Positions 3,334 to 27,822 are shown, counted from the first letter of the stretch. The stretch is DNA of 37,372 bases from SRR22947725_3405, one strand, 5' to 3'. The notes: a model not told the origin generated them from the sequence alone. Translations and numbers: made by a program.

Positions 3334-6300
3334 TTATGGCGTCGGCAGAAGGTTCACCCGATAAAATCTTGGAGAGAGCAGTCCACCGGTCAGCGAACCA
3401 TCGTCAACAAATTCAAATGAGTCTGTTTCAGAGATGATTACCTGAGGAATGTCGCTCCATGGACCCAGCAATGAGTTGGCGAAAGAAATCCGGTAAGCAA
3501 ATCCAGACATACCCGACCATCGAACTGTGATTTGACCGTTTGCGAAACTGACGCTGTCGATATTGGCCGGCGCTGCATCTCCTGGCTCTTTTCCTTCTTC
3601 ACGAGGATTGCCTTCAAGAACAGCGATACGATAAAAAGCATGTTCCGCCGGCAAGTCTATGCAGTGGGTCAGGCTGTTCCCATTGGATTCCAAAGTTTCA
3701 AGAACAGACCAGTTTCCAACTGAAATATCTGAAGTTGCCTCAACCTGATAAGCCTCACCAGTTGTTGAGGACCAGGAGAGGCAGACCTGATCATCTGCCA
3801 ATGCCATGATGGGATCAATGTAACTCAATACAACGGGCTCCACAGGAACGCCGGGCTGCCCCGCAAGCTCTCCAATCCGGAAAAACTGATAAGTAGTTGG
3901 CAAACTGACGCAGAATTGCATATTGGCATCATTTGCAGTGATAACTTCCACTTGTTGCCAATCCAAACTAGTCACACCACTGTTGCCCTGAATTACGTAA
4001 TCACTCCCTTCAGTGGCAGTCCACAGGAGGCAGATACGGTTTTGATCAAATTCAATTACAGGATCAATAAAAGCAGAGATGACCCGGTCACCGGGAGGCT
4101 GAGGATCGCCTCCCCCTGAACGAATCCTGAAGAAACGGAACTTGGTGGGCAGCTGGACACAGTATCTTGTTTGATCTCCAGTGGCCTGCACTTGTTCAAT
4201 CGCGGTCCACACGGAATCCTGAAGGCCGCTTCTTGCTTCAACGGTGAAGATATCGCCTGCTTGCGAAGGCCATTCCAAGCAGATTTGCTTGTCTTCAATT
4301 TGCAGGATAGCGTCAATAAATTCAACCGTATCAACCGGTGCCTCAATGTCTCCAGCAAGCACCCTCAAAAACCTGATTTCGGTTGGCAATGCCAAACAGT
4401 AAGCACTCTGATTGGCATCCGCAATGAAAGTATCAATCACTGCCCAGTCTCCGTCTCTCAAATCGACCAATCCTTCTATCTGGTAGGTGCGTCCTGTTTC
4501 AGAATCCCAATCAAGACAGATTTCATTATCACCCACACTTAGCACCACATCCACAAACACCTCTTCCCTAGGAGGTGACACGAGATCACCCACCACAATT
4601 CTGAAGAAACGATAAGGTGCAGGCAAATCAACGCAATACTGTGTAATTTCACCGATGGCAATTAGAGAACTCAAGTCGGTCCACGCCTCCTCTTCAAGAT
4701 TAACTTTGGCCTGAACCACATAAGATCGATTGACTTCAGTAGCCCAGTCCATGCATAGCTGATCTCCAACCAAAGCCAATACAGGATCGATAACAGGAGG
4801 CGCTGGAGGATCTTCGCCTTCAATGGGCTCGATACGGAAAAAGCGATAAGGTGTATCAAGCGCCAGGCAATATTGCATGTCACTGCGATCAGCAACAACT
4901 TCGTCAACATTGTTCCATGCGACTTCCAATAAACTCGTCCGGCCCTGAATACGATAACGGCTACCTGTCTCAGCATTCCAATTCAAACAGAGCTGATCAC
5001 CTTGGACATCGACAACCGGATCAATATAGTCCGAAGGTGTTTGGTTATCCAAACGGATCACTACGCGGAACAATTGATACTCAATCGGCAGGTCAAAACA
5101 GTACTCAGAATATACATCCCCGGCAATAATCGGTCCCGCCAAACCATCCCAAACCGGATCTTCTTCAAGAACTTTCCCCTCTACCCAGTAGCTTTGTCCG
5201 ATCTCAGATTCCCAGGACACGCAGATCTCATCACCTAGGAAGATAATATCAACAGGCACAACAATAATATCTGGGCTTTCATCAAATTTAGCGTTAGCCA
5301 TGATGCGATAATCCACCGCTGTTGTCTCACGATTGATGACCGAAAGATACCATCTCCCGGGAACCAATACCGGAGATGAATCCTGATTCAGCTGTATGAC
5401 TTCATCCACATTGCCAGGGTTAACACTTGCAGTGTCGAATGCCGAGAGAACAGGCGGACTCCCAAATTTTAAGAGAAGATCCAAATTCCCATTTTGACCA
5501 CCTTCAAGGTTGGAAAGAGTGAATGTCACATCAATGGTATCTTCGTCCACGTCGAAATAGTAGATTTCAGGGATCGCTGGCAATCCAGGCTGATTACCCG
5601 CAATGGCGTTTGTGACCCAGATTTCATTCTGCAAGGGTGTGGCGGGAACATCCACAGATTGGGCAGCCCTGACACGGTAGGTTACTTGGTCTTCTGCTTC
5701 ACGATTAATAACACCAAGGAACCATTCACCTCCGCTTAAAGCAACTGCAGTACTGGCATTCAGAACAATCGTTTCCGTGATGGAATTATCACTGAAACTG
5801 AAATCATCAAGATCTGTTAGACTGGGCAGTTGATCCTTTCTCAGTATGAGGTCTACATTGGCTTCAGCGCCCCCTGCTATTGGATCCAGTGTAAATGTTA
5901 CTTCCTCAGCAGCTGGGTCTACTACAAATCGGTAGTAATTTATTTCCTGAGGGAAGTCAGGCTGTTTGATCGCTACGGTGTTGGTTCTCCAAAGATTGTT
6001 CTCCAGAGTGATGACCGGGGGTTGGTTGGTTTCCAAGCTGGCACGAATAGTAAAATTAAGATCTTCCGTTTGCTGATTGAGCACGGAAAGAAACCAATTA
6101 CCATCAAGGCTGGGTAAGATGTCATTTGTGCGGACGATTAATTTACCTGAACCCGGTCTATCAGCAAAGACTGATCCTAATCGGTCATTGCTCTCAAAAG
6201 TAGGAAGTTCTTCTTTCTTTAAGGCAAATTGAGCATCTCCATCTGCTCCAAAGATTTCAAAGCGAGCTGCCACAGCGTTGGTGCTGGCTACCTCGAACAA

Positions 6301-9300
6301 GAAATAATTTTCTACCTTCGCGTCATCAGAGGCAAAATTGTCTCCAACCTTAAAATCGATGGATTCTCCATCTGTAAGACGAATGACATTGTATGGAACC
6401 GTTGTTTCAGTGACTGTGATCTGATAATCAACGTCGGTCCGATTGGCTTCCGCGTTGTAAACGCCAATGTAATAACTACCCGGAAAAATGGTCGCAGGAG
6501 GCTTATTTGTCTCAAACAACTGGTCTTTCAAAAGTCCTGGTAATTCCGAACGTTGATCAAAAACGGCAAGGTTAGGTAATGGTAACCCATATTTCTCAAC
6601 CATGTTGACATCCCCATTTGCCGGCTCTAGTTCAATGTCCAATTCCACAACATTGGAGGCAGCTCGATAACGGTAATACTGCATCTGGAGATCGTCTGTA
6701 AATGGAATGGTATTACTGAAGGGAATTGTATTGGTCAACGCAATGATCTGTACATCGTCCGCATCAAATTGCAGGCACAACTCATAATCCTGTTTGAAAC
6801 TGGATTTTCTGTTGGCAACCGCAAGGTAGTATCTTTGCCCAGGCTGTAACGCTGGTTCTGGAAGCGTTCCGAGCTGGTTCGTTTCTGAATCAAAAAATGT
6901 CATCCCCCCCAACGAGAGCAACATGCCTTCTCCTTCATCCGTACCATTGAAATCGATGGAAGGAATGACATCAGGAGGGCTATCGCCCGTTGGAACCCCT
7001 GTGTTATCAAACCACATTTCAAGGTCCCCCGTTCCGGTCAACCAATTGGTAGCCATTGTCGCGATCCGTGGGGTCTCGACAATGAAGTAATGCACTTCGT
7101 CGGCATCGAGTTTACCAGTAAAACATTGTCCATTGCGCAGAGTCTCGGCCTGAACATTGGTATTAGCCAGACTAAGGAGTAATTGCCAGTTTTGGAGGAT
7201 GGGTGGAGGCTCAATCGCACCGTCACGAGTATCGTTGATTTCCAAACTCCAATTGCCCAGCGCGGATTCTCCCTTGAAAACTTCAAGAGGTTCTTCAGGA
7301 AAGTAGTATTTCACCACAGCGGCATCGCGGATTTCAATATCATCCAGTGACATGGCAGGGCGACCCTTCACGAAAGTGAACTCCAATAGTGTTTCAGGCC
7401 TGGCCGGCACAAAGCGAATCGGAGTGTTTCGTCTCCAGCGAAGGGAACCATCCACTACCTGGGCCTGACGACCATCCAAGAATGCTAAACCAACAGGCGA
7501 ACCCCGACCAGCGGAGGAACGAGTGGAATAGAACAAATCAAATTTACGCCCAGGGGGAGTCGGAATAGTTATGGCCATTCTGGAACTGAAGACGTATGCA
7601 AATTTTCTTCCTTCAGGAGCGTTCCTGTTAACAATACGCACTCTTCCTGATATGACATCCCACATATTCCCAGCGTCATCGGCAGGGAAGGATTCAACTG
7701 CTGCTATAATGCCATTTGGCGCCTGTTCAAATCCACTGATAGGCGTAATGCTGGTGACAGCATTGGTGGTGAAGGGGCCTCGCGCAAACTTGATCAATGT
7801 ATCCGCATCTTCCTCATCGTCACTAAAACCAGCGAATACAGGTTCATCGGAGGTTCCTGATCCGAGACCAGTGTTGATGTCTTGTCCGCGATTTTCCGCA
7901 AGTAACACCCGCGTGCCTTGAGGACTTACCAGATGCATACTTAAATCGGATAATCGGGGGTGATCAATCCGTAAACCAATTTTGGCTTCCGCCACTCGAC
8001 GTGAATCGGCCACAAAGATGTCCGAATCCGTTTGGGCAAAGTCCAGAATAGGCACCTCAAGTTCGTCAGGAAAAAATGGTTGTTCCGAATCAATGATCAG
8101 GTTGCGTTCGATATTAAATGTCAATCTGAAATCAACAGCCACAGGGTGTGGATTGTAGACCCCGATGAAATACCTTCCGGCATTCAAGGGCGGAATATCT
8201 CTCGGCGTCATGGTGACTGTGACAATGTTTTCCCCCTCAACACCCAAAGCGCGTTTGTCGAAGATTGTTTGCGTCGGCAGTTCTTCAAGTCGTAGATACA
8301 AATCCAAGGGAAGGTCGAATTCTGTCAAATTAGCCGTAAAAGCGCTGGCATCAGGCGGCACTTCCACGAAGAAATACCTGAAAGATTCTGCCTGTACGGT
8401 AGCAAACAGTCCATTTTCATCGAGCAATTGATTCGGAGTGGCGACAACCCTGAAACCGGATAGTCGCCCGGTTTGACTGAGGGCGTTGTCCACCATAGTC
8501 ATGAGCCAGACTCCAACGCCATTTTCGCCAATGAAATTGATTAAATTACCGGGTCCATCAGAGGGGATTGAGTTTGGAAACACTCCAAAGTCATCATACA
8601 AACCATCGAGAAAAATCGAACTGCCTTGCGGGCTGAGCAATGTATGGTTATTCAAAACAGCCGAAACACCATTGTGGGAAATGCTTCCCAGAAGATCCCC
8701 GATGTCCTCGTGAAAAACAGTTTGCTCGACCACCACGCTTTGCACTGTAAGCCCATTCAATGGATTGCCAATAGCAATACCCAAACCAGCACCTGGACTA
8801 CCGGGAGTTCCGTCAGGGATAATACCCTGGTTCAACGGAATACCTCGGAAAACCCGGTTCCCATTTTGATCGGTAAAGTCAAAAGGCTCTTCCTGCGAAA
8901 GCCCCACCATGGCATACTGCGCACCCTGATGATCCTCTGACTTTACGCCTACATAATAGACCACGTCATCACCAAGCGGTTGATTTTCAAATAGCACCAC
9001 CTCGGTTCCACCTTGATTCAAAGACTTGGCCGCAGCGGAAACCACTCCTTCATCCAAGTCGAGGAGGCCTGCATCACGCGACACATAGAGGTCGATATCT
9101 GCTTCTGAAACGCGCGGCTTACCCAATTCAGGGGGAAGAAAAGTCACAAAAGCTACATTGGGGCCATTGGTAAAACCAACGTCGTTTGTAGAAGGCAACG
9201 AATTGGTAAAGGTATAGAACTGCCATTGCTGCGCCAATCCGTTGGTTGTGCCTAAAAGTGGAGCATTCGCGCCCACCCTGTCTTCGAGGCGGGGTATACC

Positions 9301-12300
9301 ATTCGTTACCGCAATCAGAGGAGGAAATACTGGTGGTAATGGCGTTTCAAGTGGCTCCAGTTCAAATGGCGCTTCCAACTCCGAATCATCACCACTGCTG
9401 ATAACGAGAGCAAAATCCTGCACCACACCATCCGGATGGTCGAAGACAGCATTGACATTAACGCGACGACCTATCACGGAGACAACATAGTTGGTGGATA
9501 GCGGACCATTGATGTAAACGTTCTCAACGTTATTGACCACATCCGAAGCAGCAACACTGTCGGACGCGGACATGCGGGTGAACAAGGAAGCTTCAACGAA
9601 ATCATTTCCGTAAAACACCTCCCCCGACAAGGCATTCGAAACAACCAAGTCAAGATCGTTCACGAGTTTGACACCTGCAGCAGGATTTCCCGGAGGATCC
9701 GTCCATACCAATGATACTCTCAAGGGGAATGCTCGTGCGCCATTGGTAGAGATATTCAAATCCCATGAAACACTGTCTCCCGTTCCTAAAGATCGCTCGG
9801 TGTCTTGATCAAAGAATTGTACTGAGGAGGTATGATTATCTTCCGTCTCAAAGAAACTTTGAGGCATGCTGTTGTTCAGACTCGGTAAACCCCATCCCTG
9901 ATAATTGACAAGTGGATCTATCTGATAATCATAGATGGTTCCAGATGACCTTGCACCATTAATCAATAATGCTTTCAAAAGTGCAGGACTGGGATTGTGC
10001 CCTTTCTCAGTCAGGTATTCCTGCATCAGGGCCAAACTACCTGAGACAACAGGAGCAGCCATGCTGGAACCAGATTCAAATCGATAATGAGGTTCGAGCC
10101 CCTCATTTAATTCAGCAAGGCCTTCATAAAAACCTTCCTCCTCCTCCTCGGTCACTACGGCTGTTTCGAGATCGAAAACCATAGTCTGTTCCGAGTTGTT
10201 CCCAATGCTGAAAAAGTATATGTTACCCGGAACCAGATTTAAGGGCGCCTGAGAATCCAGAGCTAAGGTCACAGTATTCAGTCCGAAAAAATCCTCAGTT
10301 GTCGGAAAGCGTCCCAAGGCTCCGTAAACAGGCAGATCAGGCAGGTCCAGAGGAGCATCTTCGTTGGTCCTGATGCGAACACGAACTTCCACACTGTCAA
10401 GCGGCACAAAAACTGTGATTGGATAAAGTTCTCCCGGGTTAACAGAAATACCTTCACGAAGGTTCAAAATCGTATTTTGCATACCTTCAGGGCTCTCCCA
10501 GTCCTTGGAGCGCGTGGATACTATATAAGTCCCTGGAGCGACCACATCGGGTTTGAATCGGCCACCCTCGCCTTCAATCCCAATACCGACGTTACCTCGA
10601 GAAGAAAATGAGGCCACCTCGGTAGCTGAATCCGTGTCAGCAAGGAATGCCTTTTCAAGCACTGGGATCTGGTTGGTTTCTACCACTCCCATATCATTGG
10701 TCGTGATTTGGTCCACAAAGCCAGTTACCACTTCGTTTGTAATGAAACGCAGCGTTTCAATTGCGCCAACAGTGATCACGTTTTTGGCAGTTGCAGGTGC
10801 CAGGATACTTCCCGGTGAGCCTCCTCTTCCACTTTGATTTCCGTTGCCTGCATTTCCTGAAGAAAACACGTAAACCATGGGCTGTTCTCCCTCCACATAA
10901 GGCAGCGCATCTCTCACGGCTGCATCAAAACTTGCAGAGGCCAACCCATATTCCTGTGAGTTGGGATAATTCCAACTGTTATTTGAAATCATGGCATTGG
11001 TACGACCTTCGGTGATATAATTGTGCTCAGCAGCAAGCGCTTGAAGTTCTTCATCCGACTCCAGAGGTCCGGAAAGTAAATCGATAGTCAATGACAGCAA
11101 TTCAGCCTCTGGGGCCATGCCATGGAAATTGGCATTTGTAGCAGAATTGATGATGTTGGTAATGGTGGGCGAGTTTTCCCCTGAACTTGCAAGGATACCT
11201 GCAACATGGGTTCCATGCCCGACAGAATCAAGGTGCCCTGAATAACGAATGGCTGATACCAATCCGGCAGAGCTGGTAGGCACAAGACCGGGATTGGTGT
11301 TATTTTGAGAATGGCCCGAGGATTCGACGCGACCTGTGAGGTCTGGATGCGTTGCATCAACACCACTGTCATTGATGTTAATCAGGACTCCAGAGCCAGA
11401 AAGACCATGATGGTTTTCATTGGTAAGATTGCTGCCGTCTGTATCCACCGTGACTCGCCCCCTTGACAAGTCATTTGCCAACTCTCGTTGGTGCCAGGGT
11501 TCGACCCACTGCACCAGATCTAAGTTCGCCAATGGTATCAGGCTGTCTGATGTGGCATGAACCACATACTGATCTCCGAAAGGAGAGTCAGTGCGGTTGA
11601 TTAATTGAAGTCCCAGTTGCTGCAGGGCAGATTCTGCAGCCAGAGATTCATCCGGAAAGACAGTCAAACTCAGCAGCGTTCCACTCTCCAGCTCTGTTCG
11701 TTCAACAGCTAAAGGCAGGAGTGATTCGCTAATTTTGAAGTAAGGTGCGTAGGGAACCACAGCGCGAACTCCACTGATGTTTTTCAGGTGAGTCATCACG
11801 TCAGGATCGGCACGAACCAACCATGCGTTGTTGGGGATGTAAGAAACTTTGTTGGCAGCTAATTGCTCTAGCAAGTGGGCTGGCAAGACTTCATCAAAAG
11901 GTTGATCGGTCTGGATGAGATAACTGCGAGTCCGAATGGGAGCTTGAAGATGAGAAGGTATCTTCAGAGCACGTCGTGAACTCGTGTCAATCAAGGCGTT
12001 GTTCAAGAGTAGCACATGATTTAATCGAACTAATTGATCGACTCCAACGGCTGTGTTCCTGAGACGATGAGGGTGCAAGGGGTCCTCGGGCAAAGGCTCC
12101 TGATAGCGAGCCAACACCTCAGGACTAGCTTGATTCGCGTGCCGTGTAGTTTGGTTCAGTTGAGTGAGCAGTGGTTGCCCGGCGCCATTCAAGCGGGGAA
12201 TTTTCACATTACCCGTGCCCGTCATGGCAGATGAAACAGCCTCTGCCTCCCTTTGCTTATCTTCCTGGACACGGTTCCCCAAGTTCCAGCAATAAACTCC

Positions 12301-19346: not shown

Positions 19347-19349
19347 GAT

Positions 19350-20224: not shown

Positions 20225-20989
20225 TTATGGTTGGCTCAATGCTTCAAAGACCTTGGGCTGAGTGCTCCAGTTGTTGACTCGATAAATTTTGTTTCCAATC
20301 ACCAAGTCAGCCCATAGGTCGAAGCTTTGCTGGTTGAAACGATTCAAACCTGATGATCGATACTGCCATGTGTTCATTCCACGGAACCTTTGATTTCTGC
20401 CCTGATATGGACGAAGGGATTCCATGCTTCGATTTCTACCGAGAACATCCTGATAATTACCTACAATCTGTTTGAGAGGCCAGGGTATGGGAGCTTTTAA
20501 CACTCGGATGCTGGGGTTCTCAGAGATTTCTCCCACCTCCGATGCCTTCAGATCCAGGTAGCCTTTGACCTCAGCCTGATTACGAGCAACATTTTGAAAA
20601 CCATCTCTACCGAAAAACCGATTGATCTGTGGGCGACCGATCTCATCTGAGCCACTCAAGGATGTGTAAGTACGCCTTTCAGTGTAAACTGTTCCGGTTA
20701 ATTCATAGAAGAGTTGATTGGTGACAGTGTTGACAACACCGTTTCGCAGTAAAGCATCAGGAGGGAAAGAGCCAATGTCAGCATGATAACTTTCAATGGC
20801 CGTAGAAACGTTGTTCAGAAGCGCCGACGTTTGACTTAGACGCGCTTTGGTTGTTGCCACCCCCGAAACTCCAACAATAAGGGAAGCCAAAATGCCAATG
20901 ACAGCAATCACGACCAACAGCTCAATGAGCGTAAAACCCTTCAGGCTTGGAACCCGGGTTATTTGGCTTTGGGCATTCTCGTGTTTCAT
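20225..20989 (-). CDS. GspG-like type IV pilin or pseudopilin
   Basis: [36 protein letters not shown] and VNNW. Confidence 0.85.
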   Translation of the reverse strand: MKHENAQSQITRVPSLKGFTLIELLVVIAVIGILASLIVGVSGVATTKARLSQTSALLNNVSTAIESYHADIGSFPPDALLRNGVVNTVTNQLFYELTGTVYTERRTYTSLSGSDEIGRPQINRFFGRDGFQNVARNQAEVKGYLDLKASEVGEISENPSIRVLKAPIPWPLKQIVGNYQDVLGRNRSMESLRPYQGRNQRFRGMNTWQYRSSGLNRFNQQSFDLWADLVIGNKIYRVNNWSTQPKVFEALSQP

Positions 20990-21005
20990 GCTGCTTTCAT
21001 ATCCG

Positions 21006-21302
21006 TTAAGTCATTGTTGAGGAACGCATGGACTTATCCATTTCGGATTCGACGCGCTCCCCCAGCCATTGTTTGATCATGCTTTGATAGTTCAAATACC
21101 TTGATCTAGCAAGACGCTTAATTCTTGATAGCATTTTCGGGTCCATACGCAGCGTGATCGTGACAGATTCTGAAGATTCGCTGCCCGCCGCTACCGAGTT
21201 CTGCATTAAACGCATTTCAATCGTATTTTCTCCCCAGAAAGCAGCTTCAGCCTGCTCGCTGTCAAATAAAGGGACATCTTCCCAATCGGCAACTGCATTC
21301 AT
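21006..21302 (-). CDS. BrnA/CopG-like antitoxin (RHH)
   Basis: P.F.SE.AEAAFW N-terminus and RHH segment TITLRM..K.LARSRYLNYQSMIKQWL. Start is ATG 21302 or TTG 21311. Confidence 0.8.
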   Translation of the reverse strand: MNAVADWEDVPLFDSEQAEAAFWGENTIEMRLMQNSVAAGSESSESVTITLRMDPKMLSRIKRLARSRYLNYQSMIKQWLGERVESEMDKSMRSSTMT

Positions 21303-21332
21303 ATCAAGCAATATTTTGTTAATCCCCGCTCT

Positions 21333-21620
21333 CTAAGTGATCATTTGACTAAGCTTTCTTTGGTAGAAATAAGCTTCATCATCCGTAAATGGACGGGATA
21401 AAATCACTCTAACTTGCTTTCCGTTCGTTCGAAAAACACTAAAAATCCCAACTCCTGTCGCTGAACGGCCCAAATTAAAAAATCTGGCCTGAGCGGAAAA
21501 CCTCGATGCGTCGGGTAACAACCTGATAGCAAACGGGTCTTCGAAAGATTCTTCTACGTCTCGCAACGCCAACGAACTTTCATCCGATACCGCCGAGGAG
21601 TTGTCCCAATCAAAGTCCAT
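21333..21620 (-). CDS. BrnT-like toxin-family protein, degenerate
   Basis: MDFDWD, F.DP, R...LG and VRVILSR..E..FY. It lies upstream of the antitoxin but lacks the usual KxxxNxxKHG motif. Confidence 0.75.
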   Translation of the reverse strand: MDFDWDNSSAVSDESSLALRDVEESFEDPFAIRLLPDASRFSAQARFFNLGRSATGVGIFSVFRTNGKQVRVILSRPFTDDEAYFYQRKLSQMIT

Positions 21621-21645
21621 TCAAAATGACTCGTATATCGATCGC

Positions 21646-21695
21646 AAATACATCGTCAATACAATGTATTTACAATTACTGATTTTGAGTGTCAA
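21646..21695 (-). promoter_or_regulatory. Promoter and palindromic operator region of the brnT/brnA-like pair
   Basis: TTGACA (21695-21690), N17, TAAATA. Nested inverted repeats AAATACAT (21646-53)/ATGTATTT (21664-71) and AATACA-A-TGTATT (21658-70). Confidence 0.5.
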
Positions 21696-21714
21696 CCGAA
21701 AACCCCTGTTTTGC

Positions 21715-21754
21715 GATAAAAGGCCGCCTCTCTGGTGGTTGCCAGAAAGGCGGC
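21715..21754 (-). terminator. Intrinsic terminator after pilC
   Basis: GCCGCCT.TCTGG / CCAGA.AGGCGGC stem, followed on the minus strand by a short T-run. Confidence 0.7.
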
Positions 21755-21792
21755 AGTGTAAATCATATGTTTGATTCAGTCAGCCAGACAAC

Positions 21793-23127
21793 TTAACCAC
21801 CCAACTTGTCAATCAGAGCAATCAGCGGTAAGAAAAGGGCAATCACAATACTACCAACGATGATGGCAAGAAAAACGATCATGATCGGCTCGAGAAGTGA
21901 GGTGAGCGCAGCCACTGCATTGTCCACTTCCTCATCGTAATTGTCAGCGATACGCATGAGCATTTCAGGCAAAGCACCTGTTTGCTCTCCCACATCAATC
22001 ATACTGATCACCATAGGAGGGAATACTTTCGAAGTCTCCAGAGGAAGGGTGATGGTATCTCCCTCTTTGACGCTTTCGTGCACCATGGTTACTGCTCGGG
22101 CGACCACCATGTTCCCGGAAGTTTCACGCACGATGGTCAGTGCCTGCAGAATGGGCACACCACTGCTCACAAGCGTACCAAGTGTTCTGCTAAACCTCGA
22201 GATGGAAACTTTGCTGACCAAGGGGCCCACTACAGGCGCCTTGAGCTTCCCAAAGTCCAGCCAGTAACTACCAAACTTGGTCTTGGCCAGAATTTTCAAG
22301 AAGATAAAAAAAGCAATCGGATACCAAACAGCGGGGCCTGGAACCGGCCAGTCACCTGCCCATCCAGGGAAAATAATGGTTTTATCCTTAATGTAATCAC
22401 TGATGTTCATCACGACCTGCGTAAACCCCGGAAGAGGTTCACCTTCAAGCATATCTGCAAATATTTGTTTGAACTTTGGCACCACCACAACCATGAGCAA
22501 CAAGAGAATGAGCCCTGCAACAACCATCACAGCAGCCGGATAGAACATGGCCGCAATAACCTTGCCTTTGATTTTTTCGGCTTTCTCCATGAATTCCGAA
22601 AGACGGTTGAGCACTACTTCAAGCACACCACCCATCTCACCGGCTTTTACCATGTTGATAAAGAGCTTGTTGAAAGTCTTCGGATGTTGCGCCAAACCTT
22701 CGGAAAATGTGCTGCCTCCTTCAATGGCAACTGCAAGCTCCTCAATGATTCCCTTCAAGGCAGGATTTCTTTCCTGCTTTCCCAGAACGCGTAGACCTCT
22801 CAGCAATGGAAGTCCTGCGTCAACCAATGTTGCAAGCTGCCGAGTAAAAGTAGTCAGCACCTTGGTTTTGACCTTACCCTGGAGAAACTTGGGCATGGGG
22901 ATGTTAATATCACCTTTCTTGCCCTTTTTCTTGGCTTTGGCAGGCTTTTTTCCCCCTTTTTTGCCCTTGGCACCCTTTTTAGGTTCCGCTGTTGCCTCTG
23001 TGACCTTGGTCGGAAAGAAGCCCATATCCTTCAGGCGATTGATAGCCTCATTTTGAGAGGCTACATCTAGAGTGCCTTTTTCCTCCTTGCCACGTTGATT
23101 CATGGCGACGTAATTAAATTTGGGCAT
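21793..23127 (-). CDS. pilC: Type IV pilus platform protein PilC/GspF
   Basis: FTRQLATLVDAGLPL, AGEMGGVLE, FSRTLGTLVSSGVPIL, VGEQTGAL and LLEPIMIVFL. Confidence 0.96.
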   Translation of the reverse strand: MPKFNYVAMNQRGKEEKGTLDVASQNEAINRLKDMGFFPTKVTEATAEPKKGAKGKKGGKKPAKAKKKGKKGDINIPMPKFLQGKVKTKVLTTFTRQLATLVDAGLPLLRGLRVLGKQERNPALKGIIEELAVAIEGGSTFSEGLAQHPKTFNKLFINMVKAGEMGGVLEVVLNRLSEFMEKAEKIKGKVIAAMFYPAAVMVVAGLILLLLMVVVVPKFKQIFADMLEGEPLPGFTQVVMNISDYIKDKTIIFPGWAGDWPVPGPAVWYPIAFFIFLKILAKTKFGSYWLDFGKLKAPVVGPLVSKVSISRFSRTLGTLVSSGVPILQALTIVRETSGNMVVARAVTMVHESVKEGDTITLPLETSKVFPPMVISMIDVGEQTGALPEMLMRIADNYDEEVDNAVAALTSLLEPIMIVFLAIIVGSIVIALFLPLIALIDKLGG

Positions 23128-23141
23128 AACGGGAACCAGTT

Positions 23142-24875
23142 TTAAGTGTATTTCAAGATTTCTTCAACGGAGGAATCTCCAGTGAAAATACTGCGAAGAC
23201 CATCCTCACGAAGGGTAATCATTCCATCCTCTACCGCCTTCTGGCGCACCACGACAGTAGGAGCACGATCATTGATGAGGGAGCGAATCGATTCAGAAAC
23301 TTCCAATAATTCGTAAATCCCTCTCCGGCCTTTATAACCGGTATCATTACAATCTCCACAGCCACTCCCATAGTAAAACTCCTTATCACCAATATCTTCT
23401 GGAGACAATTTCAATTGATTCAATTGCTGGTCGGTGGGCTCAAAAGGGGTCTTGCATGAACTGCAGACTTTTCTGACCAATCGTTGCGCCAAGACCCCCA
23501 TCAGTGTCGATGAAATAAGGAATGGTTCAACTCCCATGTCAACAAGACGCGTCACCGCCCCGGGAGCATCATTGGTGTGCAGTGTACTGAGAACCAAGTG
23601 ACCCGTAAGCGATGCTTGAATAGCAATTTGTGAGGTTTCCAAATCACGCATTTCCCCAACCATAATCACATCGGGATCCTGACGCAAAAAGGCTCGCAAC
23701 GCTTTTGCAAAAGTCATTCCCACGGACTCTTTCACCGGAACCTGCATGATGCCTTCGATGTCAAATTCGACAGGGTCCTCAACGGTCAAAAGTTTATGAT
23801 CTGTTTTGTTGATACGCCTCAGACAGGAATAGAGAGTGGTTGTTTTACCACAGCCCGTCGGACCCGTGACCACAAAAATACCGTTGGGTTGTTTGATTGC
23901 CTGCTGGACATAGTCATGGACGCTATCAGGGAAGCCTAGATGTTCGAGTTCAAGCGATACGGCAGAACGATCAAGCACGCGCAGCACAACGGATTCACCA
24001 AAGGCTGTTGGAAGCGTCGATAGACGCAGATCAACCTGTCTTCCACCTATGCTACAGGAGATGCGTCCGTCCTGAGGCATTCGTCTTTCGGAAATATCCA
24101 GGTTGGCCATGATTTTCAGACGGGAGGCCACTGGCATTGCCAAATGTAAAGGCGGAGGAGTCATTTCATAAAGAGCACCGTCAACACGATAACGTATTTT
24201 GAATTCTTCTTCGAATGGCTCGAAGTGGATATCGCTTGCTCTGTCCTGAACCGCTTGCAATAAAACCAGATTGACAAATTTGACAACGGGCATCTCATCC
24301 TCATCGGAAGTGAGGTCCAATGCGCCGTCCTCCACAACGTCACCAACCTCAGCTGCATCCACGTCGGCTTCAGCATCCATCTGGCTCAGGATATCGGCAA
24401 TCCCACTTTCAATTTGAACAGTACTTGCTCCTCCTCCCTCGGCAGCATAAGCCTCGCTCAGGCACTGCGCTACTTGAGCAGGATCTGCCAGAACGGTCTG
24501 AATAGGAAGGGGAACCACATAACCCAGTTCATCGACCTTGGAGGGATCCAATGGATCAACAAAAGCCACCTTCAACATTTCATCTTCCAACCCAACCGGA
24601 ACACACTGATAAGCCTGAGCTGTTTCAGAGTTGAGCATTTCCTTGAGCTCGTCGGTTACCATGCCGGGATTGACTTGCATGACCTCAGCCCCAAGATAAC
24701 CAGACACGACCTGAAGCATGGAGTCTACGTCCATGTAGCCGTAATCTTTGATGATGTCCATCACCGGATTGCCACTGCGGTTCAACTCTTCGTTGATTTC
24801 CTCCAGCTGCAGATCATCCAGCATCTCCTGGTCCCTGAGCAAGCTTAGCAATGGATTGGATATCACTTCAGACAT
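23142..24875 (-). CDS. pilB: PilB/GspE assembly ATPase (second copy)
   Basis: [13 protein letters not shown], Walker [31 protein letters not shown] and two CxxC Zn motifs. Confidence 0.93.
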
Positions 24876-24900
24876 AATAAATTAGATATTCTTCAAAACT

Positions 24901-26001
24901 TTATTCTTGGGCCTCAGCAGCAGCTCGTTCTTCGTGAATTTCCTGCAGTTTTGCCAAGACGGTTGCTGGATCCTGTGCTTTGGTAATCACCTGTTCTTCA
25001 TCAATGATCCCTTGCTGGTATTTGTCTATCAAGTAACCATCCAGAGTCACCATTCCATATTTGGCGCCGGTCTGGATATCTGAATTGATGCGAAATGTCT
25101 TGTTATCACGAATCAGCGCACCAATGGAAGGCGTATTGTTCATAATCTCAAACACAGCTACTCGCCCGGGCTTATCGCAACGCGGCAACAAGAGCTGCGA
25201 AATGACCGCCTGCAAAACAGTAGAAAGCTGAATACGAATCATCTCCTGCTGATTGGTGGGGAAGGCATTCACCAAACGGTCAATGGTCTTGGCTGCGCCT
25301 GTTGTATGCAGCGTTCCAAAAACCAAGTGACCCGTTTCCGCCGCTGTGATTGCAGCTTCAATCGTTTCCAGATCTCGCATTTCACCCACAAGAATCACAT
25401 CGGGATCCTGGCGCAGAGCACGCCTCAGAGCCTCTGCAAAACTTGGAACATCCACATGCACTTCACGCTGAGTGATCACGGCGCTTTTATGTGTGTGGTA
25501 ATATTCAATGGGATCCTCAACCGTGATCATGTGAACATCATCGCGTTCGATGTTCATGATATTCAGCAAGGATGCTAGGGTTGTGCTTTTACCTGAACCA
25601 GTTGGCCCTGTAACAAGTACCAGTCCTCGAGGCTTGTAGAGAAGTTCTTTTACACTGGGCGGGATCCCAATTTGCTCCATGGTGAGCAGGGTACTGGGAA
25701 TCTGCCGAAGAACCATTGCGAAATCACCACGCTCTTTGAAGACACTGACACGAAAACGAGCAGCTTCACCAAAGGCGAAAGCAAAGTCGGCACCACCATT
25801 TTCACGCACCTGCTGAATATGATCCTCAGAAGAAATACTCCTCATGAGTTCCTCGCAGTCATCCGCACTCAATGGCGGCCCCTCTACTCTATGCAATGTC
25901 CCGTGAACACGAATAGCAGGAGGGATCCCATTGCGAATGTGCAAATCTGATGATCCCTCTGAAACCACCAACTGCAAAAGATCTGACATTGAGTAAGACA
26001 T
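24901..26001 (-). CDS. pilT: Retraction ATPase PilT
   Basis: [45 protein letters not shown] and AIRNLIRE-like SIGALIRD. No Zn motif. Confidence 0.95.
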   Translation of the reverse strand: MSYSMSDLLQLVVSEGSSDLHIRNGIPPAIRVHGTLHRVEGPPLSADDCEELMRSISSEDHIQQVRENGGADFAFAFGEAARFRVSVFKERGDFAMVLRQIPSTLLTMEQIGIPPSVKELLYKPRGLVLVTGPTGSGKSTTLASLLNIMNIERDDVHMITVEDPIEYYHTHKSAVITQREVHVDVPSFAEALRRALRQDPDVILVGEMRDLETIEAAITAAETGHLVFGTLHTTGAAKTIDRLVNAFPTNQQEMIRIQLSTVLQAVISQLLLPRCDKPGRVAVFEIMNNTPSIGALIRDNKTFRINSDIQTGAKYGMVTLDGYLIDKYQQGIIDEEQVITKAQDPATVLAKLQEIHEERAAAEAQE

Positions 26002-26115
26002 ACGTCGTATAACTAAATTTTAAATGATAAGGGCAAGGCACTCAAAACGAACTGTGCCATTATTCCAAGTTTCTTTTTTTATAATTTGGTAGCAATACTT
26101 GGGCCAGATCAGTGT

Positions 26116-27822
26116 TTATTCCATGGATGTAGCACGTATCACTTCATCCACGGTCGTCAACCCTGCAACGACTTTACGACAACCATCTTCGCGAAGTGTC
26201 TTCATGCCCATTTCACGGGCACGTTTACGCAGCACTGATGAAGGCACTTTTTCATAAATGAGTTTCCTTGCTTCATCATTCACCACAAATATTTCAAAAA
26301 GGCCAAATCGCCCACGATGCCCCGTGCTGTTACAATTACTGCATCCTTTACCTTTTTGATAATTTGCATCCTCTACATTGCCGGGATCAATCCCAATCGA
26401 TCGAAGTTCGTTTTCTGTAGGCTGTATAGGAGCTACACACTTCGGGCAGAGTTTTCTGACAAGACGTTGCGCCATCATTGCGCGAGTCGAGGAAGCGACC
26501 AAAAACGGTTTGATTCCAATATCAATCAAACGAGTCACCGCACTTGGAGCGTCGTTCGTATGCAGCGTTGAGAAAACAAGATGCCCGGTCAGAGAAGCAT
26601 TGATTGCAATCGTCGCTGTCTCTAGATCTCGAATCTCCCCAAGCATGACAACGTTTGGAGATTGACGGAGCATCGACCTCAGAGCGCGCGCAAAACTTAA
26701 ACCAACTGTCTCGTTTACCTGCACCTGATTGATACCCGCCAAGACATACTCAACAGGATCCTCCACGGTGATGATCTTACGATCAGGTCGATTGATGAAG
26801 TGGAGACAGGAGTATAGAGTTGTGGTCTTGCCTGACCCAGTTGGACCGGTGACAAGCAGGATTCCGTCAGGCAAACCGATCATCTCCTCAAAAATCTGCT
26901 GATCATCAGTGAAAAAGCCCAATGTCGGTAACCCAAGTTTCAATCCGTCTTTATCCAGAATACGCATGACGATGCTCTCACCATGCGTGGTGGGAACCGA
27001 GGAAACACGCAAATCGATCACCTTATCCCCTACGTCGCACTGGATACGTCCGTCTTGAGGAATGCGCTTCTCGGAGATGGACATGTTCGACTCGATTTTC
27101 AAGCGGGCAATCACCGAAGCCTGCAAGCTTTTGGGCGGACTTTTGACGATGTGACAAACACCGTCGATGCGATACCTTACGCGGAAAGTGTGCTGCATTG
27201 GCTCCAGATGAATATCCGAGGCACGCGACCGATAGGCATCAATAATGATCTGGTTAGTCAGTTTAATGATGGGGGCATCTGCAGTGACGACGGTGCCCTT
27301 ATCTGCTTCCAGTTCACCGAGTGACGCAATCTCTACCTCGCCTTCAGTGATGTCCTGAATCATCTTGCTGACAGAATCATCCTTGCTCTTATTGCCACCA
27401 TAATACCGATTGATGGCATTCTGGATTTCCTTTTCGCCAGCAACGCGAACTTCAATTTGCTTACCTAATGCGACTTGAAGGCCATCAATTGCCTCAAGGT
27501 CCGTGGGGTCGGCAAGAGCCATGGTCACCGTGTCATCCGAGACGTAGATGGGAACAGCATTGAAGCGCTTGACCACATTCCTCGGCACAGCTGAGATGAC
27601 GTCATCAGCAAGCTGTATAGCATCCAGCTCAATGACTTCAGCACCAGCTTGAGCAGCCTTTGCCATCGTTACGCTTTCATCCATCAGCTCCCCTTTGGCG
27701 ACAAGGGTATCCAATACTCCTAAATCGCCAGAAACTTCGCCACGCGCTTCCTCAACCTGCTCAGAGGTAAGCAAACCCATGTCGATCAGCGTATCTACCA
27801 AATAATCGTCTTTTACAGCCAC
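26116..27822 (-). CDS. pilB: PilB/GspE assembly ATPase (first copy)
   Basis: GTG start. ASDIHLEP, GPTGSGKT, LRQSPNVVMLGEIRD, STLHTN and CPKC..CSNC. Confidence 0.93.
   Translation of the reverse strand: MAVKDDYLVDTLIDMGLLTSEQVEEARGEVSGDLGVLDTLVAKGELMDESVTMAKAAQAGAEVIELDAIQLADDVISAVPRNVVKRFNAVPIYVSDDTVTMALADPTDLEAIDGLQVALGKQIEVRVAGEKEIQNAINRYYGGNKSKDDSVSKMIQDITEGEVEIASLGELEADKGTVVTADAPIIKLTNQIIIDAYRSRASDIHLEPMQHTFRVRYRIDGVCHIVKSPPKSLQASVIARLKIESNMSISEKRIPQDGRIQCDVGDKVIDLRVSSVPTTHGESIVMRILDKDGLKLGLPTLGFFTDDQQIFEEMIGLPDGILLVTGPTGSGKTTTLYSCLHFINRPDRKIITVEDPVEYVLAGINQVQVNETVGLSFARALRSMLRQSPNVVMLGEIRDLETATIAINASLTGHLVFSTLHTNDAPSAVTRLIDIGIKPFLVASSTRAMMAQRLVRKLCPKCVAPIQPTENELRSIGIDPGNVEDANYQKGKGCSNCNSTGHRGRFGLFEIFVVNDEARKLIYEKVPSSVLRKRAREMGMKTLREDGCRKVVAGLTTVDEVIRATSME

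What the first reader, a model, noticed from the sequence alone, without database searches (positions are those of the whole stretch)
3334..27822. Candidate undescribed system: retractile type IV filament locus with a 3006-aa subtilase in the PilY1 position
Seen: a co-oriented run of pilB, pilT, pilB, pilC, a BrnT/A-like pair, two GspG-like pilins and overlap-coupled FimT/PilV/PilW/giant PilX-like genes, with the protease 65 bp later, then a CII-like gene and rpoN. Established: in T4aP loci fimU-pilVWX is followed by the tip adhesin pilY1; canonical T2SS lack PilT; the DPWG motif is a pseudopilin trait. The locus therefore mixes T2SS-like pilins with a retraction motor. Inference: the protease is a tip-displayed or dedicated cargo for attachment to and digestion of particles, cells or matrix, or it matures the giant tip pilin. 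No secretin, PilMNO or PilD genes are in the window.
Basis: partly seen in the sequence, partly recalled or inferred. Interest (0 to 1): 0.8.

Follow-up and report, generated by a model that had tools for sequence, protein, structure and literature searches.

The report
Pilus operon ending in giant protease
This is a real 13-gene operon for a retractable pilus-like filament whose last gene is always a giant, active protease, which suggests that these marine and soil Verrucomicrobia export the protease with the filament or carry it on the filament, though no experiment has yet shown this.

Summary
Window 3334-27822 holds 13 co-oriented genes: PilB, PilT, PilB, PilC, a BrnT/BrnA-like pair, two GspG-like pilins, four minor pilins and a 3006-aa S8 subtilase 65 bp after the last pilin.

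An ortholog model shows the 1375-aa "PilX-like" protein is a giant GspK/XcpX-type cap (Z 13.1). The cassette is therefore T2SS-like H/I/J/K, combined with a PilT retraction motor.

- **Synteny:** the subtilase directly follows the cap in 27/27, 72/72 and 21/21 loci. These sets overlap and span more than 20 families of one order (record titles: Limisphaerales/Pedosphaera).
- **Distribution:** I found neither protein outside that order. One genome lacks the protease, and its cap has a divergent middle.
- **Activity:** the catalytic triad is intact in 23/23 orthologs.
- **Rest of the machine:** PilM-PilQ, PilD and a separate canonical T2SS lie elsewhere in a same-species genome.

Best reading (0.55): the protease is this filament's dedicated cargo or tip-carried enzyme. 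Binding and export are inferred, not shown; the complex job gave no verdict.

New here:
- The BrnT/A-like pair is a conserved operon member.
- The protease ends in an uncatalogued C-terminal domain shared by dozens of secreted proteins.
- A protein with that domain always follows pilQ.

The scan noted this system before on other DNA. My literature searches found no description.

The parts
26116..27822 (-). PilB/GspE-type assembly ATPase 1 (568 aa) with MshEN N-domain
   Evidence: PF00437 438.6 bits and PF05157. TIGR02538 scores 606 bits and TIGR02533 590 bits, both below their equivalog cut-offs.
24901..26001 (-). PilT-family retraction ATPase (366 aa)
   Evidence: TIGR01420 441.3 bits, above the cut-off of 319.1.
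23142..24875 (-). PilB/GspE-type assembly ATPase 2 (577 aa) with MshEN N-domain
   Evidence: PF00437 460.6 bits and PF05157.
21793..23127 (-). PilC/GspF platform protein (444 aa)
   Evidence: PF00482 220.8 bits in two stretches.
21723..21754 (-). Terminator-like hairpin (13 pairs, 9 G-C) just after pilC
   Evidence: Pattern scan only. RNA-library contigs run across it (X4 record 24).
21658..21695 (-). Promoter-like TTGACA-17 nt-TAAATA overlapping the palindrome AATACATTGTATT, upstream of the BrnT-like gene
   Evidence: Read from the sequence. Function is inferred; it may be an operator for the ribbon-helix-helix protein.
21333..21620 (-). BrnT-like small protein (95 aa), conserved operon member
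   Evidence: PF04365 21 bits, below the cut-off of 34.5. Present between pilC and pilin 1 in 34/42 loci, with median identity 65% over 50 loci.
21006..21311 (-). CopG/BrnA-like ribbon-helix-helix protein (101 aa), conserved operon member
   Evidence: PF12441 38.9 bits, above the cut-off of 28. Median identity 71% over 50 loci.
20225..20989 (-). Pilin 1 (254 aa), class III signal ...KGFTLIELL
   Evidence: PF07963 and TIGR02532. The GspG hit covers the N-terminus only, 41.8 bits.
19350..20177 (-). Pilin 2 (275 aa), GspG-like, with DPWG motif
   Evidence: PF07963 and PF08334 25 bits. TIGR01710 63.7 bits, below the cut-off of 88.85. RDPWGTPY is visible in the translation.
18528..19346 (-). Minor pilin D (GspH/FimT-like, 272 aa)
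   Evidence: PF07963. TIGR02596 43 bits (below 70) and TIGR01708 36 bits.
17635..18573 (-). Minor pilin B (GspI/PilV-like, 312 aa from the TTG start; a more likely start is an ATG about 32 codons in)
   Evidence: SGFTMVEI motif. TIGR02598 23 bits, below 51.4.
16544..17638 (-). Minor pilin C (GspJ/PilW-like, 364 aa)
   Evidence: AGFSLVEV motif. Weak N-terminal hits to TIGR02599 and gspJ.
12420..16547 (-). Giant GspK/XcpX-type cap pilin A (1375 aa)
   Evidence: No Pfam hit. The ortholog model has pLDDT 85 and pTM 0.80. It matches GspK 3ci0_K at Z 13.1, rmsd 5.1 Å, 257 of 280 residues aligned, and XcpX 5vtm_X at Z 12.2; the next hit scores 7.5. Found in 39/41 relatives.
3334..12354 (-). 3006-aa S8 subtilase, terminal gene of the pilin operon
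   Evidence: PF00082, PF01483 and PF04151. Asp/His/Ser and the oxyanion Asn are conserved in 23/23 orthologs. The model of residues 1-1200 has pLDDT 78. Nearest solved structure is KP-43 1wmd, E 1.3e-28.
12226..12354 (-). Protease residues 1-43: one hydrophobic N-terminal helix (membrane anchor or uncleaved signal), with no conserved prepilin Gly-1 or Glu5
   Evidence: The model predicts a helix over residues 5-43, followed by a disordered stretch 44-95. Ortholog alignment.
11470..12069 (-). Protease residues 96-295: two beta-alpha-beta domains ahead of the catalytic domain. Reading them as I9-type propeptides is my inference from the secondary structure.
   Evidence: Secondary structure of the model. 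No Pfam hit.
9835..11397 (-). Protease residues 320-840: S8 catalytic domain with an inserted beta-sandwich (about 620-740)
7855..9822 (-). Protease residues 845-1500: the best-conserved non-catalytic beta-domains, with the start of the P-domain at its end
   Evidence: Identity is 51-72% per 60-residue window over 23 orthologs, against 18-33% in the last 800 residues. P_proprotein maps to residues 1457-1494.
3610..5262 (-). Protease residues 2365-2915: seven ~80-aa repeats, each with one Cys pair. Disulfides are inferred, which would place the protein outside the cytoplasm.
   Evidence: Cys positions and repeat motifs.
3337..3582 (-). Protease residues 2925-3006: terminal domain ending ...RFYRVNLLPTP. 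The same domain ends dozens of other secreted proteins in these genomes.
   Evidence: No Pfam or NCBIfam model matches it.

Best explanation
The window carries the motor-and-pilin operon of a type IV filament machine that is conserved across one verrucomicrobial order (record titles: Limisphaerales / Pedosphaera / subdivision 3).

The machine is a hybrid. It has two PilB-type assembly ATPases, a PilT retraction ATPase and PilC. Its pilins are T2SS-like: GspG-like major pilins and a GspH/I/J/K-like minor-pilin set whose K subunit is a 1375-aa cap. The PilM-PilQ secretin genes and the prepilin peptidase lie elsewhere in the genome.

The 3006-aa subtilase is the fixed last gene of the pilin operon and is most likely this filament's own exoprotein. 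The proposed path has four steps, all inferred:
1. The protease is inserted through Sec by its single N-terminal helix.
2. It folds in the periplasm, where the Cys-pair repeats form disulfides.
3. It cuts off its tandem propeptide-like domains, which frees it from the membrane.
4. It docks on the minor-pilin cap and is carried through the PilQ channel as the filament extends.

Outside the cell it either stays at the tip as an adhesive protease that PilT can reel back, or it is released. The evidence cannot separate those two outcomes.

**Shown:** gene content, catalytic competence, the cap's fold and the conserved linkage.

**Inferred:** docking, the export route and the propeptide cleavage.
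For: 1. **Invariant linkage.** The protease follows the cap gene directly in three overlapping samples.
   - 27/27 loci fetched round the cap homolog in relatives from 20 families. Three further loci had under about 700 bp downstream.
   - 72/72 of the 80 genome-contig loci that have at least 1 kb downstream. The median distance between the tblastn hits is 125 bp.
   - 21/21 genomes of the order in a class-wide sample.
   - All 41 loci that hold all eight genes from pilC to the protease are colinear.
2. **Co-distribution.**
   - A protease ortholog occurs in 21/22 genomes of the order and in 0/129 genomes of other orders, at E <= 1e-30 with residues 1-1500 as query.
   - The cap family occurs in 22/22 genomes of the order. 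Elsewhere there are only N-terminal hits, in 4 genomes.
   - The protease's only strong match in each genome lies at the cassette.
3. **The one exception co-varies.** G138 is 95% complete and has the operon. Its cap gene is followed 63 bp later by a uvrA-like gene, with no protease ortholog in the genome. Its cap aligns only over residues 1-318 and 937-1356.
4. **The cap is structurally GspK/XcpX** (Z 13.1 and 12.2, next hit 7.5). In T2SS this is the subunit at the filament tip.
5. **The protease looks exported and active.**
   - The triad and oxyanion Asn are conserved in 23/23 orthologs.
   - It has an N-terminal hydrophobic helix.
   - It has seven Cys-pair repeats.
   - Its C-terminal domain is shared with signal-peptide proteins carrying PA14, matrixin, PKD, Ig and cytochrome domains.
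6. **The rest of a surface pilus machine exists** in a genome of the same species (99% identical cap): PilM-x-x-secretin on C35 and an A24 peptidase on C3.
7. **Precedents in print.**
   - The TCP and CFA/III pili each export one operon-encoded exoprotein, through binding of its disordered N-terminus to the tip minor pilin (PMC10120004, abstract and introduction read).
   - D. nodosus subtilases need type IV fimbriae for optimal secretion (PMC3480457, passages).
8. **RNA libraries.** Contigs from RNA libraries of 4 of 4 runs laid, from 4 studies, cover the whole locus and bridge the cap-protease junction.
Against: - No direct evidence of binding or of pilus-dependent export exists.
- The protease has no PilY1 domain and no conserved prepilin motif.
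- The same-species genome also holds a complete canonical T2SS: GspE-F-G-H-(I)-J...GspD on C27. It has a third GspF/GspK-like cluster on C8. Either could export the protease.
- The protease's C-terminal domain is shared by about 15-70 matches per genome. It also occurs in 13/53 genomes of other orders that lack this cap. This could point to a general export or anchoring route unrelated to this pilus.
- The evolutionary-rate signal between cap and protease did not reproduce.
- The RNA evidence comes from contigs, with no DNA or silent-stretch control. It cannot prove a single transcript, or even transcription.
- The cap fold comes from an ortholog that aligns at 43% identity over shared columns in A2 (tblastn best segment 38%). 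It does not come from the window's own protein.
- The genomes are related, so the locus counts are not independent events.
Confidence: 0.55

Rival explanations
1. Co-regulated but not physically coupled. The protease is transcribed with the pilins because adhesion and extracellular proteolysis are used together. It leaves the cell by another route, either the canonical T2SS or a route that reads its C-terminal domain.
For: - A separate, complete T2SS cluster and a third GspF/GspK cluster exist in the same-species genome.
- The protease's terminal ~75-aa domain sits at the extreme C-terminus in 20/20 other ORFs sampled.
- That domain marks a set of secreted enzymes and adhesins.
- It occurs in other orders without this cap.
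Against: - Co-regulation alone rarely keeps a gene in one exact position, directly after the cap gene, across more than 20 families: 72/72 and 27/27 loci.
- None of the 14 other proteins with that C-terminal domain whose genes I fetched lies at this operon.
- Protease and cap share the same taxonomic limits.
- In G138 the cap has a divergent middle and the protease is missing.
Confidence: 0.25
2. The protease works on the filament itself. It might mature the giant cap or the large pilins, trim the filament, or degrade retracted subunits in the periplasm while still tethered by its N-terminal helix.
For: - A single N-terminal helix with no obvious cleavage motif could keep it in the inner membrane.
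- It has a P-domain, as in proprotein convertases.
Against: - About 1500 variable C-terminal residues of PPC, Cys-pair repeat and secretome-type terminal domains are typical of extracellular substrate-binding enzymes. A processing protease would not need them.
- Ortholog length varies from 1380 to 3162 aa among closed reading frames, while the catalytic core is conserved.
- G138 keeps pilins and cap without the protease.
Confidence: 0.1
3. The neighbourhood has no functional meaning, and the protease gene merely lies next to the operon.
For: The gap is 65 bp rather than an overlap, and no interaction is shown.
Against: - Conserved order and orientation across the whole order.
- The neighbours beyond the protease (CII-like gene, rpoN, def) change outside the genus and its sister genus.
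Confidence: 0.03

Closest known systems
Type II secretion pseudopilus with its GspH-GspI-GspJ-GspK tip (E. coli GspK 3ci0, P. aeruginosa XcpX 5vtm). T2SS loci that encode their own substrate, such as pullulanase or SslE, are recalled and not checked here.
   Same: - GspG-like pilins with the DPWG motif.
- A four-gene minor-pilin set ending in a GspK-fold cap (Z 13.1 and 12.2).
- A large hydrolase encoded alongside.
   Different: - PilT is present, and there are two assembly ATPases.
- The locus has no GspC/L/M or GspD.
- The secretin partner is in a PilM-PilQ type cluster.
- The cap is about four times the size of GspK.
- The major pilins are 254-275 aa.
- A separate canonical T2SS exists in the same genome.
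Type IVa pilus minor-pilin/PilY1 priming complex (FimU-PilVWX-PilY1; Myxococcus PilY1). The role of PilY1 is as cited in PMC7616799, passages read.
   Same: - PilB/PilT/PilC motors.
- A minor-pilin cassette.
- A very large secreted protein encoded directly after the last minor pilin.
   Different: - The large protein has no PilY1 domain (PF05567 gave no hit at E <= 0.01) and is an active subtilase.
- The minor pilins are closer to the T2SS type.
- A different conserved secreted protein follows pilQ.
Type IVb pili that export one operon-encoded exoprotein: TcpF by TCP and CofJ by CFA/III (PMC10120004, abstract and introduction read; PMC6048534 and PMC9565799, search listing only)
   Same: One dedicated exoprotein is encoded in the pilus operon. 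In those systems it is carried out by binding to the tip minor pilin.
   Different: - Those cargos are small colonisation factors, not enzymes of 3000 aa.
- Their tip pilin is a TcpB/CofB trimer, not an H/I/J/K set.
- Binding has not been shown here.
Dichelobacter nodosus subtilases AprV2, AprV5 and BprV (PMC3480457, passages read)
   Same: These are S8 proteases, one with a P-domain, whose optimal secretion needs the type IV fimbrial system.
   Different: They are much smaller. I did not check whether they are encoded in a pilin operon, and their mechanism is also unknown.
Verru_Chthon cassette proteins A-D (TIGR02600, TIGR02598, TIGR02599, TIGR02596)
   Same: - A verrucomicrobial four-gene set of three small prepilin-type proteins plus a giant one.
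- The minor pilins give weak N-terminal hits to D, B and C, in that gene order.
- An Atlas neighbour cluster of the cap carries that name (0.97; a lead only).
   Different: - All scores are below the curated cut-offs, and the cap does not match TIGR02600 at all.
- TIGR02600 was found in 0/8 genomes of this order and over its cut-off in 3/53 genomes of other orders.
ComZ of Thermus thermophilus (6qvi), an oversized minor pilin
   Same: A pilin fold carrying a large inserted module (Z 7.5).
   Different: The match is weak, the inserted module is unrelated, and there is no protease partner.

Membership tests
Type IVa pilus machine | PilT-family retraction ATPase | tested here: met
   TIGR01420 441.3 bits, above the cut-off of 319.1.
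Type IVa pilus machine | PilB assembly ATPase and PilC platform | tested here: met
   PF00437 at 438 and 461 bits, and PF00482 at 221 bits. The PilB and GspE equivalog models both score below their cut-offs, so the subtype is unresolved.
Type IVa pilus machine | PilM-N-O-P alignment complex, PilQ secretin and PilD peptidase | tested here: met
   Not in the window. In same-species genome G001 there is PilM (PF11104 127 bits), then two unknown genes, then a 998-aa secretin on C35, and an A24 peptidase on C3. PilN/O/P were not identified by any family model.
Type IVa pilus machine | PilY1-family tip protein after the minor pilins | tested here: not met
   The protease gave no PF05567 hit at E <= 0.01. 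The genome search of 4 genomes found none, but the control genomes did not ring either, so that part is uninformative.
Type II secretion system | GspK-fold cap with GspH/I/J-like minor pseudopilins | tested here: met
   Ortholog model against 3ci0_K: Z 13.1, rmsd 5.1 Å, 257 of 280 residues aligned. Against 5vtm_X: Z 12.2. GspH, GspJ and GspI give weak N-terminal hits.
Type II secretion system | GspG major pseudopilin | tested here: inconclusive
   TIGR01710 scores 63.7 and 41.8 bits, below the cut-off of 88.85, with N-terminal matches only. PF08334 scores 25 bits, above its cut-off of 21, for pilin 2.
Type II secretion system | No retraction ATPase; GspC/L/M and GspD in the locus | tested here: not met
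   PilT is present, and the window has no secretin or GspC/L/M hits. GspL and GspM were not searched genome-wide.
Verru_Chthon cassette (TIGR02596/98/99/600) | Scores above the curated cut-offs for proteins D, B, C and A | tested here: not met
   D scores 43.2 (cut-off 70), B 23.3 (cut-off 51.4), C 23.9 (cut-off 256.5), and A gives no hit. TIGR02600 gave no match in G001 and 0/8 in the order.
Peptidase S8 (subtilase) | Asp-His-Ser triad in S8 order, oxyanion Asn, subtilisin fold | tested here: met
   PF00082 128 bits. The motifs are conserved in 23/23 orthologs. Foldseek against 1wmd: E 1.3e-28, TM 0.83 normalised by target length.
BrnT/BrnA type II toxin-antitoxin | Family scores above cut-off, and the patchy, mobile distribution usual for such pairs (the latter recalled) | tested here: not met
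   BrnT scores 21 bits, below 34.5, and NF047399 scores 22.8, below 60. CopG_antitoxin scores 38.9, above 28. The pair holds a fixed position in 34/42 loci at 65-71% median identity.
Pilus-exported exoprotein (TcpF/CofJ type) | Encoded in the pilus operon | tested here: met
Pilus-exported exoprotein (TcpF/CofJ type) | Binds the tip minor pilin, and its export depends on the pilus | not testable with these tools
   This needs genetics or biochemistry. The single complex job is reported under Tried and rejected.

The most novel reading that the evidence does not exclude
The filament is a retractable proteolytic "fishing line". The giant GspK-like cap is a docking platform that carries a 300-kDa active subtilase out through PilQ. 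The protease's variable C-terminal arrays bind particles or prey proteins, and PilT then reels the complex back.

A wider version adds the uncatalogued ~75-aa ...RFYRv C-terminal domain. It ends the last gene of both pilus operons: the protease, and the protein after pilQ. It also ends dozens of other secreted proteins. On this reading it is a sorting or docking signal read by this machine, which would be a C-terminal-signal secretion route built on a type IV filament.
Probability: 0.12. Interest if true: 0.85.

Novelty: new variant of a known kind. Interest (0 to 1): 0.62.

Why it matters
How T2SS and secreting type IV pili choose their cargo is still poorly understood. PMC10120004 says so in its introduction.

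Here evolution has kept a single, very large and easily assayed enzyme genetically tied to a giant tip subunit across a whole order. That order includes abundant marine, freshwater and soil Verrucomicrobia. This gives a natural system in which tip-cargo recognition could be mapped.

The system also combines T2SS-type pilins with a retraction motor, which bears on how the two machine types relate.

If the protease is displayed or delivered by a retractile filament, that would be a new way for particle-associated bacteria to couple attachment with protein degradation.

Tried and rejected
1. **Complex prediction.** I sent cap residues 318-937 with protease residues 845-1200. The verdict was "no answer" (score 0.00, mark 0.34) and the controls were not run. 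The tool did not use my alignments. This counts neither for nor against binding, and only one of many possible domain pairs was tried.
2. **Evolutionary-rate covariation.**
   - With 31 taxa, 13 partitions and 59 branches, the highest off-diagonal Spearman value was 0.47. It linked cap residues 938-1375 with protease residues 846-1500.
   - With 55 taxa, finer partitions and 107 branches, the matching pairs gave -0.19 to 0.01, and the best inter-protein pair was 0.15.
   - I treat this as no robust signal. One search timed out and was rerun with faster alignment settings.
3. **Foldseek of the cap model against the PDB.** There was no match at E <= 0.001. The GspK relation appeared only with VIA-align.
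4. **Sigma-54 promoter search.** There were 25 matches against 22 expected, and none sat convincingly upstream of the pilins. The sigma-70 and terminator scans were at chance level overall.
5. **Is the C-terminal domain tied to giant caps?** Not supported.
   - It occurs in 13/53 genomes of other orders.
   - It does not track TIGR02600. G086 has 9 TIGR02600 matches and no copy of the domain.
6. **PilY1 family search in 4 genomes.** Nothing was found, but the control genomes were silent too, so this is uninformative.
7. **Own assembly.** It is not held, so all genome-wide statements rest on G001, which is 86% complete with 6% contamination.
8. **Order of the three ATPase genes across loci.** This could not be resolved from tblastn best hits, because PilB1 and PilB2 cross-hit and the 10-kb flank often cuts the first gene.
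9. **Literature.** Searches returned no paper describing this operon, the cassette name, or a pilus-linked subtilase in Verrucomicrobia. Subscription journals are not covered.

Full report
**What is there**

The stretch 3334-27822 holds 13 genes, all on the minus strand. Pfam and NCBIfam identify them as follows.
- Two PilB/GspE-type ATPases with MshEN domains: 26116-27822 and 23142-24875.
- A PilT-family ATPase: 24901-26001 (TIGR01420 441 bits, cut-off 319).
- PilC/GspF: 21793-23127.
- A small BrnT-like protein: 21333-21620 (21 bits, below cut-off).
- A CopG/BrnA-like ribbon-helix-helix protein: 21006-21311.
- Two pilins with GFTLIE-type class III signals: 20225-20989 and 19350-20177. The second carries RDPWGTPY and a T2SSG hit.
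- Three minor pilins: 18528-19346, 17635-18573 and 16544-17638.
- A 1375-aa protein with a PilX/GspK-like hydrophobic start and no Pfam domain: 12420-16547.
- A 3006-aa S8 subtilase, 65 bp later: 3334-12354.

A CII-like gene and rpoN follow.

**Whose DNA this is**

The window's own assembly is not held. The nearest held genome, G001, encodes a cap protein 99% identical to the window's. It serves here as a stand-in, and is 86% complete with 6% contamination.

The titles of the public records that carry the closest loci read Pedosphaera sp., Limisphaerales bacterium and Verrucomicrobia subdivision 3. Many come from seawater, lakes, groundwater, bog and soil. A few titles, such as Akkermansia and Bifidobacteriaceae, look like mislabelled bins.

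**The rest of the machine**

- G001 has a PilM(627 aa)-x-x-secretin(998 aa) cluster on contig C35 and an A24 prepilin peptidase on C3.
- It has four GspF/PilC-type platform genes.
- One of these belongs to a complete, canonical T2SS cluster on C27: GspE, GspF, a 152-aa GspG at 118 bits, GspH, GspJ and GspD.
- Another belongs to a cluster with a normal-sized GspK-like protein on C8.

The locus studied is therefore an additional filament system with a retraction motor. It is not the cell's general T2SS.

**The giant pilin**

A full-length ortholog of 1190 aa was modelled from a 66-sequence alignment, because the window's protein exceeds the size limit. The model has pLDDT 85 and pTM 0.80. It shows a 67-residue N-terminal helix and a pilin beta-sheet closed by the C-terminal strands.

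Foldseek found nothing significant. An exhaustive VIA-align search ranked three hits first.
- GspK (3ci0_K): Z 13.1, rmsd 5.1 Å, 257 of 280 residues aligned.
- XcpX (5vtm_X): Z 12.2.
- ComZ: Z 7.5, well below the first two.

The protein is thus a GspK-type cap with about 900 extra residues, and the cassette is H/I/J/K-like. It is not a member of the catalogued Verru_Chthon cassette. The three small pilins score below the cut-offs and the cap does not match TIGR02600. An Atlas neighbour cluster does bear that name (a lead only).

**The protease**

- *Activity.* Asp, His, Ser and the oxyanion Asn are conserved in 23 of 23 orthologs aligned.
- *N-terminal region.* A model of residues 1-1200 (pLDDT 78) shows one N-terminal helix (5-43), a disordered linker (44-95) and two beta-alpha-beta domains. 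I read those two domains as tandem propeptide-like modules.
- *Catalytic region.* An S8 domain with an inserted beta-sandwich follows, then further beta-domains. The nearest solved structure is the KP-43 alkaline protease (1wmd, E 1.3e-28).
- *Not a pilin.* The N-terminal helix has no conserved Gly-1 or Glu5.
- *Conservation.* Residues 480-1500 are conserved at 51-72% identity per 60-residue window. The last 800 residues are variable at 18-33%. Closed orthologous reading frames range from 1380 to 3162 aa.
- *C-terminal half.* It holds PPC-like domains, seven ~80-residue repeats each with one Cys pair, and a terminal domain without Cys.

**Is the adjacency conserved?**

Yes.
- *Cap distribution.* The cap has a homolog in 39 of 41 relatives from 20 families.
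- *First sample.* In 30 loci fetched round the cap, the protease follows directly in all 27 that continue downstream. Three end within about 700 bp. In two loci (L027, L031) the protease frame is split into several ORFs.
- *Second sample.* A scan of one genome per species returned at least 572 relatives of the cap. Among the best 80 loci, 72 of 72 with at least 1 kb downstream have the protease next. All 41 loci holding the eight genes from pilC to the protease are colinear.
- *Class-wide sample.* A protease ortholog was found in 21 of 22 genomes of the order and in none of 129 genomes of other orders, at E <= 1e-30. The cap family was in 22 of 22 and nowhere else beyond N-terminal hits. In all 21 the two genes are adjacent, by their coordinates.

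These three samples overlap and the genomes are related, so the counts show stability rather than independent events.

The neighbours beyond the protease (CII-like gene, rpoN, def) are kept only in the genus and its sister genus.

**The exception**

G138 is 95% complete and has the operon, but a uvrA-like gene starts 63 bp after the cap gene. No protease ortholog was found in that genome. Its cap aligns with the window's only over residues 1-318 and 937-1356. Loss of the protease thus goes with a changed middle of the cap. This is a single case.

**Expression**

Metatranscriptome libraries hold the locus. Contigs from four runs of four studies cover all 30 bins of 2500-22400. In each run a contig bridges the cap-protease junction:
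- X1: 12149-13781
- X3: 12074-12719
- X4: 12299-12898
- X5: 11495-12718

These are contigs without a DNA or silent-stretch control. They are compatible with co-transcription but do not prove it.

A strong terminator-like hairpin follows pilC (21723-21754). A TTGACA-17-TAAATA promoter-like site with a palindrome precedes the BrnT-like gene. This suggests a separate pilin-protease transcription unit, although one RNA contig crosses the hairpin.

**How it most likely works**

The linkage, the shared taxonomic limits, the tip-type fold of the cap and the exported, active nature of the protease all fit the known logic of secreting type IV filaments.
- TCP and CFA/III each export one operon-encoded protein by binding it to the tip minor pilin (PMC10120004, abstract and introduction).
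- D. nodosus needs its type IV fimbriae for optimal secretion of its subtilases (PMC3480457, passages).

I therefore favour a dedicated cargo or tip-carried protease (0.55). Whether it stays on the tip cannot be decided. The rivals are:
- export by another route with mere co-regulation (0.25);
- a role in processing the filament (0.10);
- a meaningless neighbourhood (0.03).

About 0.07 is left unassigned, for readings I have not thought of.

My two attempts to go beyond synteny failed. The single complex job gave no verdict. A rate-covariation signal of 0.47 in a 31-taxon analysis did not reproduce with 55 taxa.

**New side findings**

1. *The BrnT/BrnA-like pair.* It lies between pilC and the first pilin in 34 of 42 loci. 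The eight without it form one clade. Median identity is 65-71%, as high as PilC at 68% and far above the pilins at 32-45%. It behaves as a core component, perhaps a regulator, rather than a mobile toxin-antitoxin pair.
2. *The terminal domain.*
   - Nearly all protease orthologs end in a ~75-residue domain with the pattern LxW..G..Y.V...L..W...F.D...RFYRv, often with a final Pro.
   - A profile of 49 such tails finds about 30 further ORFs in G005 and about 14 in G012.
   - In 20 of 20 sampled it lies 0-11 residues from the stop codon.
   - Eleven of the 14 carriers fetched show Pfam domains typical of secreted or surface proteins: PA14, matrixin, CotH/LTD, Ig, multihaem cytochrome, Calx-beta, a second S8 and PKD. 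The other three have no Pfam hit. Thirteen of the 14 begin with what looks by eye like a signal peptide, which I did not test.
   - No Pfam or NCBIfam model covers it.
   - It occurs in 8 of 8 genomes of the order (14-71 matches) and in 13 of 53 genomes of other orders. It is therefore not specific to this pilus.
3. *The protein after pilQ.*
   - The gene directly after pilQ in G001 encodes a 644-aa secreted protein with seven GDQ-type repeats, an fn3 domain, a TSP3 repeat and the same terminal domain.
   - In all 33 genomes where it and PilQ were found on one contig, its ortholog lies within 2 kb downstream of pilQ on the same strand.
   - Both operons of the machine thus end with a protein bearing this domain.
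   - The 644-aa protein could be the true counterpart of PilY1.

**Novelty**

Five literature searches found no description. This scan had already noted the same architecture on two other windows (e1-3553432 and e1-2813525). My independent counts agree with those notes and extend them to a marine clade.

I file it as a new variant of a known kind: a type IV filament or T2SS with a co-encoded exoprotein. It is distinguished by the giant GspK-type cap, the retraction motor, the fixed giant subtilase and the conserved BrnT/A-like pair.

Noticed in passing
window 21006-21620: The BrnT-like and CopG/BrnA-like pair is a conserved member of the pilus operon. It is present in 34/42 loci at 65-71% median identity, as conserved as PilC. 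It is preceded by a promoter-like site and a palindrome at 21658-21695, so it may regulate the pilin-protease unit rather than act as a toxin-antitoxin pair.
   Followed up: partly
window 3337-3582; G005 and G012 loci L129-L162: An uncatalogued ~75-aa domain ending ...RFYRv lies at the extreme C-terminus of the protease. It also ends about 15-70 other ORFs per genome, and 11 of the 14 carriers examined have Pfam domains typical of secreted or surface proteins (PA14, matrixin, CotH, PKD, cytochrome, a second S8). It sat at the C-terminus in 20/20 ORFs sampled. It occurs in 8/8 genomes of the order and in 13/53 genomes of other orders. It could be a sorting or anchoring domain.
   Followed up: partly
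L121:32-1966 (G001 contig C35), downstream of the pilQ secretin at L121:2054-5050: A 644-aa secreted protein with seven GDQ-type repeats (possibly a beta-propeller), fn3, a TSP3 repeat and the same C-terminal domain. In all 33 genomes where both genes are on one contig, it follows pilQ within 2 kb. It is a candidate PilY1-like partner of the same machine.
   Followed up: partly
L123 (G138 contig C24) 7205-13443: The one genome of the order without the protease. A uvrA-like gene follows the cap gene, and the middle third of the cap (about residues 318-937) no longer aligns with the window's.
   Followed up: partly
L124:7398-9923, L125:6348-8828, L126:7838-10285: Stand-alone paralogs of 815-841 aa match only residues ~500-1300 of the cap, that is the inserted module and C-terminal part. 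One lies next to a second PilB/PilC pair. No Pfam domain.
   Followed up: no
window 2800-3312: A CII/CP76-like helix-turn-helix gene lies between the protease and rpoN. It is conserved only in the genus and its sister genus (7 loci, L011-L017), so it is not part of the order-wide system.
   Followed up: partly
window 23142-27822: There are two PilB paralogs, both with MshEN domains (a c-di-GMP-binding type, recalled). They are conserved unequally across the order, at median 44% and 65% identity by tblastn best hit, though the two queries cross-hit each other's genes. Two assembly ATPases alongside two major-type pilins may mean two filament modes.
   Followed up: no
L127 (G001 contig C27) and L128 (G001 contig C8): A complete canonical T2SS cluster and a third cluster with a normal-sized GspK-like protein exist in the same-species genome. 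The organism therefore runs at least three type IV filament systems.
   Followed up: partly
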